Source: Acidimicrobiia bacterium (GTDB lineage: Bacteria; Actinomycetota; Acidimicrobiia; Spongiisociales; Spongiisociaceae). Taken from it: a DNA stretch of 13,971 nucleotides. Below, one piece after another: positions 310 through 10,545 of the stretch. Position numbers and translations under genes: made by a program. Under the pieces are notes generated by a model. The model had not been told where the DNA came from and searched no databases. It was given only the letters and a program-made list of their open reading frames with translations. How positions within the stretch are numbered: position 1 is the stretch's first letter; every line of letters begins with the position of its first letter. The stretch lies in NCBI GenBank assembly GCA_041576165.1, contig JBFGLM010000084.1, forward strand, positions 1-13,971. Reading direction: 5' to 3'.

Positions 310-981
310 TCAGCTGTCCAGCCCGTCGCCGTAGATAGCCCCGGTGACCTGGCGGCCGACCTCGAAGGCATCGTCGACTGAGAGGGCGAACAATTCGTCA
401 GGACGGCCCGCCATCCACTCCGTGGCGTTGAAACCGTTCTCGAAGAACAGGACCTTGTGGCAGAAGCCGGCCACCACATCTGCGTCGAATGGTCCATCAG
501 GCACCAGGAAAGTGACCACCGTTTCGGGCGGGTGGCAACGGAGGACGCGTTGGGGAGTCACTGTCAGGCTGATCTCTTCACCGGAGAGTCCATCAGTCGC
601 GATGACCCGCACGGTCTCGCCGAGCAGACGGGGCAGGAACAGCGTGTCCCAGGCGCACCATGCGTATGCCACTACCGTTTCAGGGCCGATTTCAAGGCGG
701 TATTGCGGGTGGAGCGGATCACGGGCCAGGCCCCAAAACCCCACGATCGCGTCGTCATCATCCCGGTACACGCCGGGCCACAGCCGGAGTCGCTGAGCGA
801 CCTGGTCGACCGGCGCTCCCACTGCTTCGGCTACTTGCCGGTCGAACACCGATTCACCGCGGGCAAGCAGGCGGTAGGTGGCCAATACGATCCGGCGGTC
901 CAACGCATCGAGGTGGGGGGTGGCCGCCGCCAGTGCAGCGGCGAGATCGGAGATAGTCGGTGGATTCGTGACAACTGTCAT
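310..981 (-). CDS. merB: Organomercurial (alkylmercury) lyase MerB-like protein
   Basis: N-terminal HTH-like segment (YRLLARGESV...VAEAVG), DAIVGFWGL, catalytic YAWCAWDTL (Cys/Asp) and FCHKVLFF (second Cys), final LSVDDAFEVG. AGGAG lies 5 nt before the ATG at 981, so this start is preferred over 987. Confidence 0.88.
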   Translation of the reverse strand: MTVVTNPPTISDLAAALAAATPHLDALDRRIVLATYRLLARGESVFDRQVAEAVGAPVDQVAQRLRLWPGVYRDDDDAIVGFWGLARDPLHPQYRLEIGPETVVAYAWCAWDTLFLPRLLGETVRVIATDGLSGEEISLTVTPQRVLRCHPPETVVTFLVPDGPFDADVVAGFCHKVLFFENGFNATEWMAGRPDELFALSVDDAFEVGRQVTGAIYGDGLDS

Positions 982-1029
982 CGGCACTCCTAGCTCTTGA
1001 ATCGAGGTGACAACCAGAGGTGGCGACGG

Positions 1030-1506
1030 TCAGTCGTTGAGTACGGTGAAGATCCGCCAGCTCACGGCGGCCAGCAACCCCTCTTCTTCCAGCATCTCGG
1101 TCTTGCCCTCAGCCACGTACACGTAGTCGTTGAGCCATTGATATCGCTCATCGCCAGTCTCGAATCGGGGGGTGGACATGAGGTACATCTGACCGAAGTC
1201 CGCGGGCGCGCCCTCAGCGGGAGGTGCGTTTGTCGGATCACTACGCCAGACACCCTGGTTCTGCACGTAGATGATCGCGCCGTCATCGGATTCGAGCGCG
1301 ATGCGGATGTCGAGCCGCATAGTGCCGTTGGGTTCGGCCAGAGGCCAGTCACCCCCGCCCGGGAGCAGGCGGCCCTTCAGTCGAAGTCCTTCGAAGGTGC
1401 CGTCCGCCGCGTTGTAGATGTAGCGAATGCCGTACGGACCGGCGCCGGCATCCAGCCACGGGTCATAGAGCCGTCCGGTCAAGTCCATCAAGTGCTCGAG
1501 CTGCAT
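1030..1506 (-). CDS. DUF3237 family beta-barrel protein
   Basis: Motifs GPYGIR, GTFEGLRLKGRLLPGGGDW, LDIRIALESDDGAIIYV, YLMSTPRFETGDERYQWLN. Strong RBS GAAAGGAG before the ATG at 1506; the ORF-track extension to 1668 overlaps arsR. Confidence 0.88.
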   Translation of the reverse strand: MQLEHLMDLTGRLYDPWLDAGAGPYGIRYIYNAADGTFEGLRLKGRLLPGGGDWPLAEPNGTMRLDIRIALESDDGAIIYVQNQGVWRSDPTNAPPAEGAPADFGQMYLMSTPRFETGDERYQWLNDYVYVAEGKTEMLEEEGLLAAVSWRIFTVLND

Positions 1507-1544
1507 GTGACTCTCCTTTCTCACACCAGAGCACACCTGGATTG

Positions 1545-1586
1545 ATCGAGAAATATCGATGTATTGAACCATCGAGATACGTCGAT
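1545..1586. promoter_or_regulatory. Two tandem ArsR-type operator palindromes ATCGA-N6-TCGAT (1545-1560, 1571-1586)
   Basis: ATCGAgaaataTCGAT and ATCGAgatacgTCGAT in the AT-rich divergent gap between DUF3237 and arsR. Confidence 0.75.
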
Positions 1587-1595
1587 CATTCCCGA

Positions 1596-1601
1596 TAGAC
1601 T
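1596..1601 (+). promoter_or_regulatory. -10 element TAGACT of a probably leaderless arsR transcript
   Basis: TANNNT hexamer ending 6 nt before the ATG at 1608; no clear Shine-Dalgarno sequence. Confidence 0.5.
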
Positions 1602-1607
1602 GAAAAG

Positions 1608-1952
1608 ATGGATCACTGCACGCTGGCCTGCTGCGCCGAAGCCGGCACCTTGAGCACCGACGCCGCAAGTGAGCTGGCGACCGGATTCAAAGCGCTGGGT
1701 GACCCGCATCGGGTGGCGGTGGTCGACTTGTTGTTGCGCGCCGGGGAGCCGGTGTGTGTGGTCGACATCGAACGCCACCTACCGCTGGCGCAATCAACCG
1801 TCAGCTACCACCTGAAAACGTTGATCGGCGCCGGCATCCTCGAGCGAGAGCGGAGGGGCCGCTGGATGTTTTACACCGTTCGGCCCGAAGGCCTCGATCT
1901 TCTGCGCGGAGCGCTCGCCGGATTCCTCAGCGTGACCAGCCTGAATACCTGA
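1608..1952 (+). CDS. ArsR/SmtB family metalloregulatory repressor
   Basis: FKALGDPHRVAVV...VCVVDI...LAQSTVSYHLKTL..AGIL..ERRGRWMFY winged HTH; N-terminal CxxxCC and an alpha3 Cys. Confidence 0.93.
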   Translation: MDHCTLACCAEAGTLSTDAASELATGFKALGDPHRVAVVDLLLRAGEPVCVVDIERHLPLAQSTVSYHLKTLIGAGILERERRGRWMFYTVRPEGLDLLRGALAGFLSVTSLNT

Positions 1953-1974: not shown

Positions 1975-2005
1975 TTGACCTTCAAGCAGGTTGAAGCTGT
2001 ATGTT
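1975..2005 (+). promoter_or_regulatory. MerR-family-type promoter/operator
   Basis: TTGACC(1975-1980), 19-bp spacer, TATGTT(2000-2005), with dyad CTTCAA-gcagg-TTGAAG (1980-1996) across the spacer. Confidence 0.75.
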
Positions 2006-2032
2006 GGGATGCCGGCCGAGCAAAGGAACGCC

Positions 2033-2341
2033 ATGGAGCTAACGCTGCAGTATTTCGACGGCTGTCCCAATTGGAAGATCGCTGAGCGCCGGCTCGCCAC
2101 GCTGATTCAGCAGCAGGGACTCGAGGTTGAGATCCGCTACCAGCTCATCGACTCGCCCGAGGCCGCCGCCGAGCATGGGTTTCGGGGTTCACCCACCATT
2201 CTCGTCAACGGGTCGGATCCGTTTGCGGCGCCCGACGCGCCCGTGGGTCTCAGCTGTCGGGTGTACCCCACCGACGACGGACCAGCGGGCTCGCCTACGT
2301 TGCAGCAACTGGCGGAAGCAATGCAAGCGGCAAGCGGGTGA
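2033..2341 (+). CDS. Small thioredoxin-fold protein (YFDGCPNW / GSPT / SCRVY family, commonly linked to mer/MerB loci)
   Basis: MELTLQYFDGCPNW...GFRGSPTILVNGSDPF...GLSCRVY; AAAGGA RBS before the ATG at 2033. Confidence 0.82.
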   Translation: MELTLQYFDGCPNWKIAERRLATLIQQQGLEVEIRYQLIDSPEAAAEHGFRGSPTILVNGSDPFAAPDAPVGLSCRVYPTDDGPAGSPTLQQLAEAMQAASG

Positions 2342-2345
2342 TCAG

Positions 2346-3122
2346 ATGGTGACGCCGATCGAGCGAGACGAGGTGATCCGGCTCATCGACGCCGGGGCAT
2401 ACGTCATCGACGTCCTCCCCGAGCGCGAATACTCCGAGTCTCACCTCCCGGGCGCCATCAACATTCCATTGAAAGAACTCACCGAGTCCGCGGTTGAGGA
2501 GCTGCGGCGGGACAAGCCGGTGGTTGTCTACTGACACGACGGCTTGTGAGACATGTCTCCGCGAGCCGCGTGCCGGCTCGAGCGTCTCGGGTTTGAACAG
2601 GTCTACGACTACGTCTCGGGCATCGCTGACTGGAAGGCAGCCGGGCTGGTGACCGATGGAGAGGCCGCTCCGGTGCAGCGCGTGGCCGATGCGACCCGGC
2701 CCGACATTCCAACATGTCGGTCGGACGAGTCGGTTGGAGAGGCGAAATCGCGCACAATCGGTGCCGGCTGGGACGAATGCGTCGTGGTCGACTGCGATGA
2801 CATCGTGGTCGGGCGGCTGCGCGGCAGTGCGTGGGAAGCGGACCCAGGCGCAAAGGTCGACGTAGTCATGGAGCCCGGTCCGACCACCGTGAGGCCCGAT
2901 GGGTTGCTCCAGCCGCTGGTCGAACGCATGGGAGAACGCGGCACCCGCCTGGTTCTGGTGACGACCGCGCAGGGCGGGCTAGTGGGTGCTCTGCTCAGAG
3001 CTGAAGCCGAACGCTTGCTCACTGGCGAGCCGCCCGAGCAGATCTGGGCGGACTGCGAGGGCTGCCCCGGCGGATGGCGCATCGTGCCCGGTTCACGCGA
3101 GGCGCCGAATGGGGGAGAATGA
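2346..3122 (+). CDS. Rhodanese-like + CBS-pair fusion, predicted selenoprotein with two Sec (U63, U68)
   Basis: One frame from ATG 2346: IDVLPEREYSESHLPGAINIP...KPVVVY-TGA(2532)-HDGL-TGA(2547)-DMSPRAACRLERLGFEQVYDYVSGIADWKAAGL completes a rhodanese domain only if both UGAs are read through. CBS-like repeats and a C-terminal CEGC follow. 258 aa. Confidence 0.85.
2535..2588 (+). promoter_or_regulatory. Candidate bacterial SECIS element(s) inside the coding sequence
   Basis: Hairpin A spans 2535-2572, starting right after UGA1. Hairpin B is CGAGCCG(2562-2568)-CGTGC-CGGCTCG(2574-2580), starting 12 nt after UGA2 with GU in the loop; it can extend via GAGAC(2548-2552)/GTCTC(2584-2588). Confidence 0.6.
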
Positions 3123-4660: not shown

Positions 4661-4807
4661 GGCCAGAAAACTACACGCGTCGAACCGTGCCGCATGCTGC
4701 GCTGGCGTTGTTGCATCCGCAGTCGGAGTCACCCAACGCGGCTTCGTTTCTCGCACGGTACGGGGCTCGTGGACGCGCACCCGCCCGTGTGTCTAGCGTT
4801 GCAGCTC

Positions 4808-5173
4808 ATGGGTCTGGTGTGGCGCCTCGTCATCACCGCCGCGGCTGTGTGGCTGACTGCGACTTTCCTTCCGGGCATTGTCGTCGAGGATGGGGTCTCG
4901 GATCTCGTCCTCGCGGCGTTCGTGTTCGGGGTTGTGAACGCTTTCATCCTGCCGGTCTTGCGGCTCCTGACCAGAGAGATCACTCTGGTCAAACTGGGCG
5001 TTCTCACGCTGGCGGTCAACGCGTTCATGGTGTTGGTGACCGCCGCGTTGGTCGAATCGCCTTCGCTCAGGGGACCGGTGTCCGAACAGGTCCTGACGGG
5101 CATCCTGATCACGGTGATTGTGTCAGCTGTGAGCGTGCTGCTCAGCTGGTATCTGCCGGACCCCATCACCTGA
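4808..5173 (+). CDS. 4-TMS membrane protein, phage holin superfamily IV (DUF360/YvlD-like)
   Basis: Four hydrophobic segments; LVITAAAVWL...PGI, VFGVVNAFILPVLRLL, LGVLTLAVNAFM motifs. Confidence 0.8.
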   Translation: MGLVWRLVITAAAVWLTATFLPGIVVEDGVSDLVLAAFVFGVVNAFILPVLRLLTREITLVKLGVLTLAVNAFMVLVTAALVESPSLRGPVSEQVLTGILITVIVSAVSVLLSWYLPDPIT

Positions 5174-5236: not shown

Positions 5237-6280
5237 TCACTGTGACAGCGCGGTTCGCGCGTCGGCGATATCACCCTGCCACGCGTTGATCGCGAGAATC
5301 GGGCGGAACCCCATTGCGACGTTGATGTTGAGCATGGCTTCGTTGGAGCCGGCGTTGCCGGTGTAGATACGCTCCGCAACAGGGAACTCGGCCACGAAAC
5401 GCTTGATATTGGAGGCCTTTATGAGGCGCCCCAGCCCCCGGTTGCGGTGGGCCGGGTCGACCACCGTGTCACCTTGGTTCGCGATTTCGGGGTCGTGGGT
5501 CTGGGCATGCAGCGTTGTCATCCCTGCGAAATCGCCTGAGTCGCGATGGACCGCAACACAGGCGCGCATCTGATCGCCACGCGTCTCGAGGCTGGCCTCG
5601 ATGCTTCGCCACTTGTCCGGAGTCATGGTCTCGTCCTCGAGATCGAGGTCTTCGAGCGGGGCCGTATTCATCGCCTCGCAGATCCGGCACCACGCAGCGA
5701 CGTGGTCGTCCGGAATGGGAGGCTGAAGGTAGAGCAGGTCGTAATCGGCCGCCCGTTCGCCCGCCCGCTCTATCCATTTGTCCATCAGGTCCCAGTCAAC
5801 ATCCTTGACGAATAGCCGGCTGATCTTCTCACCCAGCACCTTCTTGAGACCCAGCCGTTCGAGTGCGGGCTCCAGCGGCGAGCCGTCGGGTGTGTCGATG
5901 ATCAGTTTCGACCGGCCTTCTCGTTCGAGTCCGTCGAGCCCGGCCGCGAGGAGCCGGCGACCGACCCCGCGGCGGCGGGCGTCCCGGCGCACGGCCAATG
6001 TGAGCAGGCCGCTGTCCTTGTGATCCTGCCACGTGGCCATGTGGCAGACACCCAGCACGTCGTCGCTCTCCGACGCTGCCCACCAGCGGTCCGTGCGGTG
6101 CGTGCCGACCAGCGAACGCCAGTATGCCCGATGCTGCTCGAACGGCGTCCGCGGCTCTTCCGGATAGAAATCAGCCTCGAGGTCGAGATAGGCGAGGTGC
6201 ATACCTCGCAACAGGGTGTCGGAGGCCGACCGCACATTGAACTCGTCCACGTCAACACTCATACGTCGAGATCCGGTCAT
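5237..6280 (-). CDS. Tandem-domain GNAT N-acetyltransferase
   Basis: Two acetyl-CoA motifs (VRRDARRRGVGRRLL; TVVDPAHRNRGLG) and C-terminal TGNAGSNEAMLNINVAMGF. Start may be at 6262. Confidence 0.9.
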   Translation of the reverse strand: MTGSRRMSVDVDEFNVRSASDTLLRGMHLAYLDLEADFYPEEPRTPFEQHRAYWRSLVGTHRTDRWWAASESDDVLGVCHMATWQDHKDSGLLTLAVRRDARRRGVGRRLLAAGLDGLEREGRSKLIIDTPDGSPLEPALERLGLKKVLGEKISRLFVKDVDWDLMDKWIERAGERAADYDLLYLQPPIPDDHVAAWCRICEAMNTAPLEDLDLEDETMTPDKWRSIEASLETRGDQMRACVAVHRDSGDFAGMTTLHAQTHDPEIANQGDTVVDPAHRNRGLGRLIKASNIKRFVAEFPVAERIYTGNAGSNEAMLNINVAMGFRPILAINAWQGDIADARTALSQ

Positions 6281-8480: not shown

Positions 8481-8785
8481 GTCGCCGATCCCGTCGTCTC
8501 GCCGGACATGTGATCCGCACCCATGCCCGCCCCAACGGATTGCCCTTCCTTCCCGGTCGGGCATAAGAACTGGCGAAGTGCTCCGGTCGGGCGGCGGGCT
8601 GCCCGAACGGGCCGCCCGCCGCCCCGCCTGCCAACCGCCGGCTGGAGACGCCGGGGCCGATGTGCCGGGACGGTATTCCTCTCGCAGGGACTAGCCACAT
8701 CTCGCGGCGGAGGAATGATGATCGAGCATGCGCACGCTACAGCCGATGACCACTCTCAGTGACGACCGTTCAGGGGGAAGCCATC

Positions 8786-8824
8786 ATGAGAACACACCGC
8801 TCCGGCCTGAGCTGGCACCAATGA
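8786..8824 (+). CDS. 12-aa upstream ORF MRTHRSGLSWHQ, translationally coupled to the protease
   Basis: AGGGGGAAG RBS at 8772-8780, ATG at 8786; its TGA (8822-8824) overlaps the protease ATG (8821-8823) as ATGA. Confidence 0.5.
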   Translation: MRTHRSGLSWHQ

Positions 8825-10545
8825 AACCGGTCGTTGCGCTCGCAGTCGTCATCACCCTGCTTGCACCGGTGGACGCGTCGCGCCCCGCCTCAGCGGACAC
8901 AGAGGACGCCGCAGTCGCGGTGATCGTGCGCGAGGCGAACCCAGGGTCCGATGCGGCAGAAGCTCTCGTCGAACAGGTAGGCGGCACCGTCGGCGACCAG
9001 ATCTCGATCATCGGCGGTTTCACCGCTACCGTGCCGGCTGCCGCACTCTCGGTGGTGGCTGCCAGCCCAGCAGTCATTTCCGCCACGGTTGACCACCAGG
9101 CCGCCGACCTCACTGCCGGATGGCAGGACGCCACCAACCTGGGCGACTTCGTCCCGAACGAATGGGACGGCTCGATGCTGCACGTCGGGTATCAACTCGG
9201 CGTCAACGAGTACTGGCGGGCCGGCTACACCGGCACGGGCGTCGGCGTCGCCCTCATCGATACGGGCGTGGCGCCGGTTGAGGGGCTTGCCGGCAACGGA
9301 AAACTGATCAACGGCCCGGATCTCTCGTTTGAGTCCCAGTCAGATGAGTTCCGTTACCTCGACACGCACGGCCACGGCACGCATCTGGCGGGGATCATCG
9401 CCGGACGCGACCCTGCTGCCCCCGCCGAACTCACGATCGACAACGCCGAGTCGTATTTCATCGGTGTCGCGCCGGACGCCCACCTGGTGAACGTGAAGGT
9501 GGCGGGTCATGATGGGGCCGTGGACGTTTCGCAGGTCATCGCCGCCATCGACTGGGTTGTCCAGCACAAGAACGACCACAACATCCGCATCGTCAATCTG
9601 GCGTTCGGCACCGACTCGAGCCAGGATCCGCGGGTCGACCCGCTGTCGTATGCGGTTGAGCAGGCCTGGAAGCAGGGCCTCGTGGTGATCGTTGCGTCCG
9701 GCAACGACGGTAACGCTGCCCCCGTCCGCAACCCGGCGACGAACCCCTACGTGATAGCGGTCGGCGCCATGGACGGCTACCGGCTGAGGGGCAAGGACAC
9801 TCAGCCCATTCCCGACTGGTCGAGCTGCGGAACGGACCGCACCGTAGACATCGTCGCCCCCGGCGCCTCGATCGTCAGCCTCCGCAGCCCCGGGTCACTC
9901 GCGGATGTCGATCACCCGGAAGCCCGGGTGGCCGATCGTTTCTTCCTCGGTTCCGGCACCAGCCAGGCTGCAGCTGCGGCGTCTGGCGCCGCTGCCTTGG
10001 TCTTGGAGCGGAACCCCGAATACTCGCCGGACGATGTCAAAGACGTGCTGATGGACAGCGCCGACACGTTCCGCAAGGTGTCAGCGGTCTGCCAGGGGTC
10101 AGGGAAGATCCGGCTCCACAGCGCATGGTGGGAGAACCCGGACGGCTCGAACCAACTTCATCTGGCTGCCACCGGTCTCGGTTCACTGGAGGCCTCGCGG
10201 GGATCGGATCACCTCGAGATGGATGGCGTGCTCCTGGAGGGCGAACAGGACATCTTCGGCAACACCTGGGACGCCGCCACCTGGACACTGGCGGCGGCTC
10301 AGGGTGGCAGCTGGTCGGGTGGCGATTGGAACGGAGCGACGTGGACGGGTGGATCTTGGTCCGGCGGTTCCTGGTCCGGCGCCAGCTGGTCGGGCGGCTC
10401 GTGGTCCGGCGGGTCCTGGTCGGGAATGACCTGGAGCAGCAATACGTGGTCCGGCGGATCCTGGTCCGGCGGATCGTGGTCGGGCACTAGCTGGTCGGGC
10501 GGCTCGTGGTCCGGCGGCTCCTGGTCGGGACTGAGCTGGGACTGA
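8821..10545 (+). CDS. Secreted S8 (subtilisin-family) serine peptidase with C-terminal Trp pentapeptide repeats
   Basis: Signal peptide MKPVVALAVVITLLAP...ASA, propeptide, catalytic motifs VALIDTG (Asp), HGHGTHLAG (His), ASGNDG (oxyanion Asn), GSGTSQA (Ser). Start uncertain (track gives 8728). Confidence 0.93.
   Translation: MKPVVALAVVITLLAPVDASRPASADTEDAAVAVIVREANPGSDAAEALVEQVGGTVGDQISIIGGFTATVPAAALSVVAASPAVISATVDHQAADLTAGWQDATNLGDFVPNEWDGSMLHVGYQLGVNEYWRAGYTGTGVGVALIDTGVAPVEGLAGNGKLINGPDLSFESQSDEFRYLDTHGHGTHLAGIIAGRDPAAPAELTIDNAESYFIGVAPDAHLVNVKVAGHDGAVDVSQVIAAIDWVVQHKNDHNIRIVNLAFGTDSSQDPRVDPLSYAVEQAWKQGLVVIVASGNDGNAAPVRNPATNPYVIAVGAMDGYRLRGKDTQPIPDWSSCGTDRTVDIVAPGASIVSLRSPGSLADVDHPEARVADRFFLGSGTSQAAAAASGAAALVLERNPEYSPDDVKDVLMDSADTFRKVSAVCQGSGKIRLHSAWWENPDGSNQLHLAATGLGSLEASRGSDHLEMDGVLLEGEQDIFGNTWDAATWTLAAAQGGSWSGGDWNGATWTGGSWSGGSWSGASWSGGSWSGGSWSGMTWSSNTWSGGSWSGGSWSGTSWSGGSWSGGSWSGLSWD
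10303..10542 (+). repeat. 16 x 15-bp coding tandem repeat (GGSWS pentapeptide)
   Basis: GGSWS GGDWN GATWT GGSWS GGSWS GASWS GGSWS GGSWS GMTWS SNTWS GGSWS GGSWS GTSWS GGSWS GGSWS GLSWD, ending at the stop codon. Confidence 0.95.

What the first reader, a model, noticed from the sequence alone, without database searches (positions are those of the whole stretch)
2346..3122. Hidden double-selenocysteine rhodanese-CBS protein (UxxxxU active-site loop)
Seen: the two track ORFs ending at 2534 and starting at 2553 share a frame and are separated only by TGA-CAC-GAC-GGC-TTG-TGA-GAC. The first half ends in VVVY and the second starts MSPRAA, so the break falls in the rhodanese active-site loop. Established: rhodanese catalytic Cys follows the (V/I)VVY strand, this subfamily typically reads YCxxxxCxxSxxA, and single-Sec rhodanese-related proteins are known. 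Inference: both UGAs encode Sec (U63, U68), giving a possible diselenide centre fused to CBS domains and a C-terminal CxxC. Two Sec five codons apart is rare in bacteria, and pipelines would call this two fragments or a pseudogene. Neighbouring genes end in TGA, so this is not genome-wide recoding.
Basis: partly seen in the sequence, partly recalled or inferred. Interest (0 to 1): 0.92.

Follow-up and report, generated by a model that had tools for sequence, protein, structure and literature searches.

The report
Two-selenocysteine rhodanese-CBS gene, mis-called as fragments
This is one real gene for a sulfur-transferase-like protein whose active-site loop carries two selenocysteines encoded by two "stop" codons; gene finders cut this widespread, unrecorded marine family in two.

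Summary
Window 2346-3122 (+) is one frame interrupted only by TGA at 2532-2534 and 2547-2549.

Both TGAs most likely encode selenocysteine:
- Both sites are Cys in Cys-type homologues.
- Of 34 homologous loci from the same class, 12 have TGA at both sites, 20 have Cys then TGA, and 2 have Cys at both.
- A 7-bp hairpin 12 nt after the second TGA pairs fully in 32 of 32 TGA loci, with compensatory changes. It pairs fully in only 14 of 79 Cys-Cys loci.
- Codons upstream of the first TGA are under purifying selection (dN/dS 0.20).
- The bin holds selA, selB, selD and tRNA-Sec.

The second site is the older Sec. Sec at the catalytic site arose at least twice, each time alongside a different hairpin after the first TGA.

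A UxxxxU rhodanese loop is already described for TsoB. I confirmed it sits at the same loop positions, so the motif is not new. This rhodanese-CBS family is unlisted in what I could search and reaches no NCBIfam cut-off.

The gene sits in cassettes under heavy-metal-type MerR or ArsR/SmtB regulators, with a thioredoxin-like DF-family gene and often merB. A role in mercury handling is inferred, not shown.

The parts
2346..3122 (+). Complete gene of the rhodanese-CBS selenoprotein (258 aa plus the TGA stop at 3120-3122)
   Evidence: Full-length homologues of 55-68% identity read through the same two TGAs.
2532..2534 (+). UGA1 = Sec63, the canonical catalytic Cys position of the rhodanese loop
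   Evidence: Cys in 20 CU and 2 CC loci and in P0005-P0007; TGA in 12 loci and in 78 metagenome stretches.
2547..2549 (+). UGA2 = Sec68, loop position +5; the ancestral Sec of the family
   Evidence: TGA in 32 of 34 loci. Cys in the CC forms.
2562..2580 (+). hp2: SECIS-type hairpin CGAGCCG-CGUGC-CGGCUCG, starting 12 nt after UGA2 (19 nt between UGA2 and the loop)
   Evidence: RNAalifold consensus of 32 Sec loci. In 27 sequences, 189 of 189 cells are paired, with C-G to U-A in 3 sequences and A-U to G-U in 6; slid controls give 17-47%. Fully paired (7 of 7 pairs) in 32 of 32 Sec loci against 14 of 79 CC loci, and in 56 of 59 distinct metagenome UU sequences.
2532..2575 (+). hp1: candidate SECIS for UGA1. 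An 18-bp hairpin whose 5' arm holds UGA2 and whose 3' arm overlaps the 5' arm of hp2; loop CAUG at 2552-2555, 17 nt after UGA1
   Evidence: dG -22.9 kcal/mol, z -3.75, 0 of 200 shuffles fold as well. It is more stable in UU than in CU forms. Covariation support is weak, so this part is inferred.
2367..2642 (+). Rhodanese domain (residues 8-99)
   Evidence: Pfam. The AlphaFold2 model (pLDDT 90.4) matches PDB 3NHV with rmsd 1.3 A over 107 columns.
2676..3020 (+). CBS pair (about residues 111-225)
   Evidence: Pfam. Foldseek matches to the CBS pairs of MgtE, OpuCA and CBSX.
3054..3065 (+). C-terminal CxxC (C237, C240) within the tail motif W.DC.GCPG.W
   Evidence: Present in the long forms only. 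This tail is low-confidence in the model.
1991..2341 (+). Upstream thioredoxin-like DF-family gene (Cys form); it ends 4 nt before the ATG at 2346
   Evidence: NF049942 scores 67.9 bits against a cut-off of 70. A homologue lies nearby in 18 of 34 loci, directly upstream on the same strand in 17, and upstream on the same strand in 32 of 78 metagenome loci.
1608..1952 (+). ArsR/SmtB-family metalloregulator
   Evidence: Pfam HTH_5. NF033788 scores 80.2 bits, cut-off 55.
310..987 (-). MerB-like organomercurial lyase, divergent from the cassette
   Evidence: PF03243 scores 86.8 bits. It is below the NCBIfam equivalog cut-offs.

Best explanation
Window 2346-3122 is one intact gene for a 258-aa selenoprotein. 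It has a rhodanese domain whose active-site loop reads Y-Sec-H-D-G-L-Sec-D, followed by a CBS pair and a C-terminal CxxC tail.

How the UGAs are decoded:
- UGA2 (Sec68) is decoded by SelB and tRNA-Sec. A conserved 7-bp hairpin with a 5-nt loop (hp2, 2562-2580) 12 nt downstream directs this. Supported by comparative analysis.
- UGA1 (Sec63) is most likely served by its own hairpin (hp1, 2532-2575). Its 5' arm contains UGA2 and its 3' arm overlaps hp2, so the ribosome melts hp1 and frees hp2 as it advances five codons. Inferred.

How it evolved: the family is the Sec form of a widespread Cx4C rhodanese-CBS family. Sec at loop position +5 is ancestral in Acidimicrobiia. Sec at the catalytic position was added later, at least twice.

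What it does (inferred, about 0.4): the Sec/Sec or Cys/Sec pair is a soft-ligand or redox centre. It acts in cassettes controlled by heavy-metal-type MerR or ArsR/SmtB regulators, together with the thioredoxin-like DF protein and often MerB. The most likely role is to bind or pass on Hg(II) or another thiophilic species. The CxxC tail and the DF protein would reset the centre, and the CBS pair would gate it by an adenosine-type ligand.
For: One gene, both UGAs = Sec:
- Both sites are Cys in P0005, P0006 and P0007, in 79 Cys-Cys loci and in PDB 3NHV.
- The 34 loci divide into 12 UU, 20 CU and 2 CC. A further 78 UU stretches, 59 of them distinct, come from metagenomes.
- dN/dS is 0.20 for the 44 codons upstream of UGA1 in the 12 UU genes, and 0.14 downstream of UGA2. 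dS is halved in the hairpin region, 0.70 against 1.38.
- 117 of the 120 best database hits are calls of 164-196 aa covering only 62-73% of the query. All 3 that I examined start at MSPRAA.

SECIS:
- hp2 is the RNAalifold consensus.
- All 189 cells are paired in 27 sequences, with one compensatory pair; slid controls give 17-47%.
- 32 of 32 Sec loci are fully paired against 14 of 79 CC loci.
- 56 of 59 distinct metagenome UU sequences are fully paired, and 7 carry the U-A compensatory pair.

Sec machinery:
- The bin holds selA x2, selB x2, a Sec-type selD and tRNA-Sec x2.
- Of 27 other genomes with TGA forms, 26 have selA or tRNA-Sec.
- Two of the Cys-only genomes (G417, G229) gave no selA hit (G417 again). 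A third genome whose match has no in-frame stop, G312, does have selA.

hp1:
- dG -22.9 kcal/mol, z -3.75.
- Mean MFE of the first 45 nt is -19.0 (12 UU) and -19.5 (59 metagenome UU), against -14.2 (9 long CU) and -12.0 (11 short CU).
- An independent short-form UU lineage has a different 6-bp hairpin at the same place.
- TsoB shows two tandem hairpins with the same spacing.

Fold: pLDDT 90.4, with the rhodanese domain closest to 3NHV and the rest a CBS pair.

Genomic context:
- A DF-family gene lies nearby in 18 of 34 loci, 17 of them upstream on the same strand, and upstream in 32 of 78 metagenome loci.
- A MerR-family regulator lies in 7 of 17 extended loci and in 25 of 78 metagenome loci.
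- merB lies within about 2 kb in 9 of the 31 gene-bearing genomes. MerB occurs in 18 of those 31, against 55 of the other 370.
- merA lies 2 kb away in G089.
Against: - There is no experimental evidence: no RNA run was listed, and there is no proteomic or 75Se data.
- Covariation for hp1 is weak. 80% of cells are paired over all 27 sequences, and the structure was derived from the window itself. Three of the 12 UU genes lack its apical 4 bp.
- hp2 alone might serve both UGAs: 34 nt separate UGA1 from its loop, inside the 16-37 nt range that I recall for bSECIS models.
- hp2 in the single window sequence is not exceptional (z -1.5).
- The bin is 7.5% contaminated. Its contig C86 is 99.9% identical to a contig of a genome from another family. 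The link between the window contig and the Sec machinery therefore rests on binning.
- G158 carries a CU form, but neither selA nor a tRNA-Sec above threshold was found there (95% complete).
- Against the mercury reading: merB was found in 0 of 78 metagenome UU loci. No merA above cut-off was found in G000, G232 or G256. The MerR-type regulators are below every metal-specific cut-off.
- The distance between the two Sec residues could not be measured, because model coordinates are not exposed.
Confidence: 0.78

Rival explanations
1. The same selenoprotein, but its function has nothing to do with metals. It would be a sulfane-sulfur, persulfide or selenium-transfer protein, or a redox-sensing rhodanese, of the kind often paired with ArsR-type regulators. 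Its place next to mer-type genes would reflect co-travel on mobile islands.
For: Rhodanese domains are sulfur or selenium carriers (established knowledge). The profile of the family alignment A1 matches YgaP, PspE and beta-lactamase-rhodanese (persulfide dioxygenase-type) structures. The window's regulator is ArsR/SmtB with a weak BigR-like hit. merB was found in 0 of 78 metagenome UU loci. The gene tree mixes taxonomic families, and an integrase lies next to the gene in L078, which points to mobility.
Against: merB lies within about 2 kb in 9 of 31 genomes, far above the roughly 0.1% expected for a random place in a 3-Mb genome. The commonest regulator is of the heavy-metal MerR subgroup. P-type HMA ATPases and merA occur in some of the islands.
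Confidence: 0.35
2. Only UGA2 is decoded efficiently. UGA1 in the UU forms would act mainly as a selenium-dependent checkpoint or leaky terminator, so little full-length protein is made. Alternatively, hp2 alone serves both codons and hp1 is a by-product of the codons for H-D-G and A-A-C.
For: hp1 covariation is weak. Long CU forms can also fold hp1-like structures, for example L046 at -21.8 kcal/mol. The 34 nt between UGA1 and the hp2 loop is still inside the recalled bSECIS range.
Against: dN/dS is 0.20 upstream of UGA1 in UU genes, and that segment is useful only if translation continues. UU forms are abundant and diverse, with 59 distinct sequences, and arose at least twice. Each UU lineage has a hairpin after UGA1 made from different codons. 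TsoB has two tandem hairpins.
Confidence: 0.12
3. A pseudogene or two separate genes: a rhodanese remnant plus a CBS protein that starts at ATG 2553.
For: Gene callers annotate it this way: P0003 is the window's own 189-aa call, and 117 of the 120 best hits are such fragments.
Against: The TGAs sit at the same two codons in 32 loci that share only 40-69% protein identity with the window, and the frame is preserved on both sides. There is purifying selection upstream. A protein starting at Met70 would lack the rhodanese beta-strands. hp2 is conserved only where a TGA is present.
Confidence: 0.02
4. UGA is read as another residue (Trp, Gly or Cys) through genome-wide or tRNA-based recoding, not as Sec.
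For: None specific. Such codes exist in other lineages (recalled).
Against: TGA ends this gene and most Pfam-supported neighbours. The in-frame TGAs fall only on Cys-aligned columns. Sec machinery co-occurs with the TGA forms. The hairpin is at canonical SECIS spacing.
Confidence: 0.03

Closest known systems
TsoB, the rhodanese/DsbD fusion-like selenoprotein (NCBIfam NF045694). The 2026 review PMC13188914 lists it as 'rhodanese form 5', motif UxxxxU with 2 Sec, and cites Haft & Tolstoy 2025.
   Same: It has a rhodanese domain with two Sec separated by four residues at the same loop positions. All 6 TsoB loci that I read show FY-U-AGL(T/A)-U-VRSDSAARVA, against VY-U-HDGL-U-DMSPRAACRL here. The two UGAs are 15 nt apart and are followed by hairpins at similar spacing.
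   Different: The window protein scores 31.1 bits against a cut-off of 805, and only over the rhodanese part. It has no DsbD membrane domain; it has a CBS pair and a CxxC tail instead. The phylum and the gene neighbourhood differ. In this family the first site is often still Cys.
BH2092 of Bacillus halodurans, PDB 3NHV / 3O3W (structural genomics, function unknown)
   Same: It is the closest solved structure of the rhodanese domain: profile E 1.6e-16, Foldseek rmsd 1.3 A over 107 columns, 27% identity. It carries the same Cx4C loop, YCWGPAC.
   Different: It is a single domain with Cys at both sites and no CBS pair.
Other rhodanese-type selenoproteins: forms 1-4 in PMC13188914 (motifs UxxS, UxxG, CxU, UxxG) and the UxU form in the Olavius symbionts (PMC1976440)
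   Same: Sec lies in or beside the rhodanese active-site loop, and these forms were predicted from Sec/Cys pairs (passages read).
   Different: The listed forms have one Sec, or UxU. None is described with a CBS pair. NF041203 (form 3) scores 31.1 bits against a cut-off of 115 here. I saw no sequences for forms 1, 2 and 4, so identity with one of them is not excluded.
Cys-Cys rhodanese-CBS proteins of Nonomuraea, Streptomyces, Microbispora, Solirubrobacterales, Chloroflexota and Acidobacteria
   Same: Same two-domain architecture and the same YCxDxxCD(M/L)S loop, at 37-60% identity.
   Different: Cys at both sites. The hp2 hairpin is mostly not conserved: 14 of 79 are fully paired. No function is assigned.
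Bacterial SECIS of E. coli fdhF (recalled: a stem-loop just 3' of the UGA, with a minimal 17-nt upper hairpin about 11 nt downstream)
   Same: hp2 is a 19-nt stem-loop 12 nt after UGA2. hp1 starts at UGA1, with its loop 17 nt downstream.
   Different: Here two such elements overlap and are mutually exclusive. No Rfam family matched.

Membership tests
Bacterial selenoprotein gene (Sec-decoded UGA) | The in-frame UGA aligns with Cys in homologues (Sec/Cys pair) | tested here: met
   Both columns hold only U or C in alignment A1 (32 rows) and in the 34 loci. The Cys-Cys forms are shown.
Bacterial selenoprotein gene (Sec-decoded UGA) | UGA is conserved in orthologues of other Sec-using organisms, with conserved flanks | tested here: met
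   UGA2 is present in 32 of 34 loci and UGA1 in 12 of 34. There are 78 metagenome UU stretches. dN/dS is 0.14-0.20 on both sides.
Bacterial selenoprotein gene (Sec-decoded UGA) | A SECIS stem-loop lies shortly downstream of UGA2 | tested here: met
   hp2 is fully paired in all Sec loci, shows a compensatory pair, and is fully paired in only 14 of 79 Cys-Cys loci.
Bacterial selenoprotein gene (Sec-decoded UGA) | A SECIS stem-loop lies shortly downstream of UGA1 | tested here: inconclusive
   hp1 is stable (z -3.75) and more stable in UU than in CU forms. A second UU lineage has a different hairpin at the same place. Formal covariation is weak.
Bacterial selenoprotein gene (Sec-decoded UGA) | selA, selB, selD and tRNA-Sec are present in the same genome | tested here: met
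   Caveat: this is a bin with 7.5% contamination and a near-identical foreign contig.
Bacterial selenoprotein gene (Sec-decoded UGA) | Selenium is shown in the protein (75Se labelling or mass spectrometry) | not testable with these tools
   No experimental data. No RNA run was listed.
Rhodanese homology domain (PF00581) | Profile match above the gathering score, and the alpha/beta fold with the catalytic residue after the central strand | tested here: met
   68.1 bits against 22.2. The model has pLDDT 90.4, with strand E59-62 immediately before residue 63. It matches 3NHV.
CBS pair (PF00571) | Two CBS repeats forming a Bateman-type module | tested here: met
   24.8 bits against 24, in 2 stretches. 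Foldseek matches to the CBS pairs of MgtE, OpuCA and CBSX, with target TM-scores up to 0.88. Ligand binding was not tested.
TsoB (NF045694) | Whole-protein score above the cut-off of 805 bits, with a DsbD-type membrane domain | tested here: not met
   31.1 bits, covering the rhodanese part only. No DsbD domain was found.
TsoB (NF045694) | UxxxxU in the rhodanese loop | tested here: met
   All 6 TsoB loci read show the motif at the homologous position.
rhodanese_LYCAU (seleno)protein (NF041203) | Score above the cut-off of 115 bits; CxU motif | tested here: not met
   31.1 bits. The motif here is (C/U)x4U.
mer (mercury resistance) locus component | Conserved linkage to merB, merA or merR | tested here: inconclusive
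   merB lies within about 2 kb in 9 of 31 genomes, and merA is nearby in G089 only. MerR-family regulators are common but below the MerR-specific cut-off. merB was found in 0 of 78 metagenome UU loci.
Rhodanese/Cdc25-type arsenate reductase (recalled motif HCx5R) | Arg at position +6 after the catalytic Cys | tested here: not met
   Position +6 is an invariant Asp, D69.

The most novel reading that the evidence does not exclude
Two overlapping, mutually exclusive SECIS hairpins work as a relay. The ribosome that has inserted Sec63 under hp1 melts it, which releases the strand that forms hp2 for Sec68 five codons later. This arrangement evolved at least twice, whenever the catalytic Cys of an already Sec-containing rhodanese became Sec. 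The resulting Sec-x4-Sec loop is a selenium-based acceptor for Hg(II) released by MerB. It would form a mercury-handling module, with the DF thioredoxin-like protein and a MerR or ArsR regulator, that works without a neighbouring MerA in many marine Acidimicrobiia.
Probability: 0.22. Interest if true: 0.8.

Novelty: new variant of a known kind. Interest (0 to 1): 0.6.

Why it matters
- **Annotation.** A widespread family in marine and sediment Acidimicrobiia is systematically called as a 'CBS domain protein' of about 180 aa. That was the case for 117 of the 120 best database hits. No NCBIfam model reaches its cut-off, so annotation by those models would not name it a selenoprotein.
- **Evolution of Sec use.** The family contains Cys-Cys, Cys-Sec and Sec-Sec forms of one active-site loop. 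The Sec-Sec state arose at least twice. This gives a natural series for asking what a second selenium adds to a rhodanese.
- **Decoding mechanism.** Two UGAs 15 nt apart force the question of how bacterial SECIS spacing is satisfied twice. The overlapping-hairpin arrangement here, and the tandem arrangement in TsoB, can be tested directly with reporters.
- **Mercury biology.** If the link to merB and metal regulators is functional, it would tie selenium use to mercury handling in abundant uncultured marine bacteria.

Tried and rejected
- **Rfam**: 3 chance-level hits (E 0.25-4.2, none SECIS-related) and no SECIS family. This is uninformative, because bacterial SECIS elements are poorly represented there.
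- **Expression**: no RNA holder listed.
- **Reads**: only Logan contigs were available. They show presence and no variant at the TGAs, not expression. The depth spike at 2517-2563 reflects a conserved core shared by many organisms, not copy number.
- **The search for related loci on genome contigs**: the tool chose a peptide pattern with Cys at both sites. The 79 parsed loci are therefore Cys-Cys by construction. I used them only as a control set, not to estimate Sec/Cys proportions.
- **hp2 in the single window sequence:** unremarkable (z -1.5). Its support is comparative.
- **hp1 over all 27 sequences:** weak covariation, so hp1 stays an inference.
- **Arsenate-reductase reading:** rejected, because position +6 is an invariant Asp rather than Arg.
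- **Membership in TsoB or rhodanese_LYCAU:** rejected on score.
- **merB linkage:** not seen in the 78 metagenome UU loci.
- **Sec-to-Sec and Sec-to-CxxC distances:** not measured, because model coordinates are not exposed.
- **Complex prediction, the search of protein representatives and the protein-atlas search:** not used. I make no binding claim.
- **Literature:**
  - Haft & Tolstoy 2025 (mSystems), the primary TsoB paper, is not held. What I say about it comes from the table of the review PMC13188914 (passages read).
  - Passages were read in PMC1976440, PMC12013277, PMC13326102, PMC2398784, PMC9312934 and the bioRxiv preprint 10.64898/2026.04.03.716425.
  - Searches found no description of a rhodanese-CBS selenoprotein.
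  - Supplements were closed and may hold family lists that include it.
Full report
**1. The observation**

The window reads GTG GTT GTC TAC TGA CAC GAC GGC TTG TGA GAC ATG TCT CCG..., with TGA at 2532-2534 and 2547-2549. ORFs 2127..2534 and 2553..3122 share the frame of the ATG at 2346. Read through, the product has 258 aa with U63 and U68 in ...VVVY-U-HDGL-U-DMSPRAAC..., a CxxC at C237/C240, and a TGA stop at 3120-3122. Pfam finds Rhodanese at residues 8-99 (68.1 bits, cut-off 22.2) and CBS (24.8 bits, cut-off 24, two stretches). The window is 64% G+C. The frame has the codon-position G+C pattern of the other genes, and TGA is the usual stop of the supported neighbours.

**2. Is it one gene with two Sec codons?**

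*Homologues in the database.* A search of 5.8 billion proteins gave 1490 hits. Of the best 120, three are full-length (248-251 aa). The other 117 are calls of 164-196 aa that cover only the C-terminal 62-73% of the query. The three full-length proteins read VVVYCHDGLCDMSPRAAC, with Cys at both sites. Three of three short calls examined begin at MSPRAA, exactly after the second TGA.

*Homologues in genomes.* Six-frame searches of genomes read through stops.
- Among 61 relatives, full-length matches carry 2 TGA in G030, G049, G039, G033, G031 and G010, and on a second contig of the own bin. They carry 1 TGA in G043, G032 and G057.
- In an even sample of 401 genomes of the class, 31 have a match at E <= 1e-40.
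- I parsed 34 loci: 12 have TGA at both sites (UU), 20 have Cys then TGA (CU), and 2 have Cys at both (CC).
- In a 32-row alignment the two columns are invariant as U/C.

*Selection and assembly.* In the 12 UU genes the 44 codons upstream of UGA1 have dN/dS 0.20 at dS 1.38. The 30 codons after UGA2 have dN/dS 0.14 at dS 0.70. The N-terminal part is therefore maintained as coding sequence, and synonymous change is halved where the hairpins lie. Contigs of four runs from three studies cover 2531-2581 with no listed difference at either TGA.

**3. SECIS**

*The hairpin after UGA2 (hp2).* RNAalifold on the 32 Sec loci returns one consensus element, CGAGCCG-CGUGC-CGGCUCG (window 2562-2580), starting 12 nt after UGA2.
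- On 27 sequences (unpublished genomes left out), all 189 cells pair. One pair changes on both sides (C-G to U-A in 3 sequences) and one shows A-U to G-U in 6. Sliding the 3' arm by 1-3 columns gives 17-47% pairing.
- The U-A change couples a synonymous Ala codon change to an Arg-to-Gln replacement, seen in L046, L054 and L059.
- As a control I used 79 Cys-Cys loci that encode nearly the same peptide. Only 14 keep all seven pairs, against 32 of 32 Sec loci.
- In 59 distinct metagenome UU sequences, 56 keep seven pairs and 7 carry the U-A pair.

*A hairpin after UGA1 (hp1).* The window folds an 18-bp hairpin at 2532-2575 (dG -22.9 kcal/mol, z -3.75, 0 of 200 shuffles as stable). Its loop lies 17 nt after UGA1, its 5' arm contains UGA2, and its 3' arm is the 5' arm of hp2. 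The two hairpins therefore exclude each other.
- The mean MFE of the first 45 nt is -19.0 in 12 UU genes and -19.5 in 59 metagenome UU sequences. It is -14.2 in 9 long CU genes and -12.0 in 11 short CU genes.
- Formal covariation for hp1 is weak.
- Three of the 12 UU genes lack its apical helix.

*Independent origin.* Two trees bear on this.
- In the tree of 37 proteins, the genome-derived UU genes form one supported clade of 12 UU plus 2 CU revertants. CU is ancestral, and CC forms arose several times.
- A metagenome scan with a UU pattern found 78 stretches. Six belong to a short-form lineage that falls outside the long-form clade. An AU test rejects a single UU clade (p = 3e-59) with the active-site columns left out of the tree. 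I named the group after seeing the first tree.
- That second lineage has a different 6-bp hairpin, GGACUC/GAGUCC, with a loop holding UGA2, in the same place.

*Comparison with TsoB.* TsoB genes likewise show two tandem hairpins. One begins at UGA2 and one follows it, with 18 and 20 nt between each UGA and its loop. I therefore think that each UGA has its own element. This remains an inference.

**4. Sec machinery**

The bin (5.1 Mb, 161 contigs, 96.5% complete, 7.5% contaminated) has the following:
- selA, two places;
- selB, two places;
- selD with an in-frame TGA;
- two strong tRNA-Sec hits (79.9 and 72.9 bits, gathering score 47).

selA occurs in 274 of the 401 class genomes. Of the 30 other genomes with the gene, 24 have selA at E <= 1e-60. 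The remaining six are:
- G229 and G417: Cys-Cys forms.
- G273: selA as a split hit, plus tRNA-Sec.
- G039 and G402: tRNA-Sec but no selA found.
- G158: a CU form, 95% complete, with neither found.

G229 was not re-examined.

Caveat: contig C86 of the bin, which carries a second UU copy, is 99.9% identical over 2453 nt to a contig of G319, a genome of another family. The bin is therefore mixed or shares an island.

**5. The protein**

AlphaFold2 on the alignment gives pLDDT 90.4 and pTM 0.74. The tail 231-258 is of low confidence. The rhodanese domain is closest to BH2092 (PDB 3NHV: rmsd 1.3 A over 107 columns, 27% identity). The rest matches CBS pairs of MgtE, OpuCA and CBSX. BH2092 reads YCWGPAC, the same Cx4C loop. 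A DsbD protein with two rhodanese domains (P0129) has YCANYQC and YCASYTC, and one of those domains is 44% identical to the window's.

There are two length classes:
- about 247-258 aa with the tail W.DC.GCPG.W. The UU genes of the genome sample belong here, apart from L031, which ends at 232 aa without the tail;
- about 214-230 aa without the tail.

The short-form UU lineage from metagenomes lacks the tail.

**6. Genomic context**

In the window, from left to right:
- MerB-like lyase, 310-987 (-);
- DUF3237, 1030-1668 (-);
- ArsR/SmtB regulator, 1608-1952 (+);
- DF-family thioredoxin-like gene, 1991-2341 (+). It scores 67.9 bits on NF049942 against a cut-off of 70, and ends 4 nt before the ATG;
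- the selenoprotein gene.

Across relatives:
- The DF gene lies nearby in 18 of 34 loci, directly upstream on the same strand in 17, and upstream in 32 of 78 metagenome loci.
- A MerR-family regulator of the heavy-metal subgroup lies in 7 of 17 extended loci and in 25 of 78 metagenome loci. It resembles CadR-PbrR, MerR and CueR but is below all their cut-offs.
- In the complete genome G057 the order is merR, divergent from merB - DF - rhodanese-CBS.
- MerB occurs in 73 of 401 class genomes: in 18 of the 31 with this gene, against 55 of the other 370.
- merB lies within about 2 kb in 9 of the 31: G000, G057, G232, G295 (unpublished), G039, G072, G432, G089 and G256.
- merA above cut-off lies 2 kb away in G089 only.
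- P-type HMA ATPases lie in the G057 and G256 loci (L066, L067), and an integrase lies beside the gene in the G033 locus (L078).
- Against the link: merB was found in none of the 78 metagenome UU loci.

Related genomes are not independent observations, so these counts overstate significance.

**7. What is known**

The 2026 review PMC13188914 (passages read) lists five rhodanese selenoprotein forms. Form 5 is TsoB (NF045694), with motif UxxxxU and two Sec. I found TsoB genes with 2 TGA in another phylum (24 places; 20 of 301 genomes above the cut-off). All six loci I read show FY-U-AGL(T/A)-U-VRS, at the homologous loop positions. The motif and the double Sec in a rhodanese loop are therefore known.

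The window protein is not a TsoB (31.1 bits against 805) and reaches no NCBIfam cut-off. No paper I could search describes a rhodanese-CBS selenoprotein. The primary TsoB paper and all supplements were unavailable.

**8. Verdict**

This is a real, intact selenoprotein gene with two Sec. It is a new family-level variant of a known kind. The decoding of UGA2 is well supported, and that of UGA1 is plausible. The metal or mercury role is a reasoned inference. Interest 0.6.

Noticed in passing
G000:C42:9975-10253 and many other class genomes: Many MerB (PF03243) matches in Acidimicrobiia carry one in-frame TGA, some two, including a second MerB-like gene of the own bin. They may be Sec-containing MerB-like lyases, comparable to the known SaoL selenoprotein.
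   Followed up: no
G000:C1:171385-172317 (-): The bin's selD has one in-frame TGA, so it is a Sec-type selenophosphate synthetase.
   Followed up: no
G000:C86:10219-10953 (L080) and G319:C146 (L044): A second UU copy in the bin is 64% identical to the window protein. Its contig is 99.9% identical over 2453 nt to a contig of a genome from another family. The bin also has two sets of selA, selB and tRNA-Sec. It is either a mixed bin or shares a mobile island.
   Followed up: partly
window 2517-2563: In Logan contigs of four runs the summed depth jumps from about 5 to 79-198 over this 47-nt core, and contigs break at 2552-2555. The TGA/SECIS core is near-identical in many community members and tangles assemblies.
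   Followed up: partly
window 1991-2341 (+): The upstream gene is a Cys form of the 'DF family (seleno)protein' (NF049942), just under the cut-off. Conserved motifs are QYFDGCPNW, FRGSPT and GLxCRVY. No TGA form was seen in the loci where my pattern found the motif.
   Followed up: partly
L164-L169 (TsoB loci of another phylum): TsoB genes have two tandem hairpins after their two UGAs: GAGUC-6 nt-GACUC starting at UGA2, then CRGCC-CGGGU-GGCYG with an A-U to G-C compensatory change.
   Followed up: partly
Trees; L078:6825-7973: The gene tree mixes genomes of eight taxonomic families within a distance of 0.1-0.3, and a phage-type integrase lies next to the gene in G033. This suggests horizontal spread of the cassette.
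   Followed up: no
window 4694-5173 (+), 8728-10545 (+), 5237-6280 (-): Unrelated neighbours: a Phage_holin_4_2 family membrane protein, an S8 subtilase of 605 aa and a double GNAT acetyltransferase.
   Followed up: no
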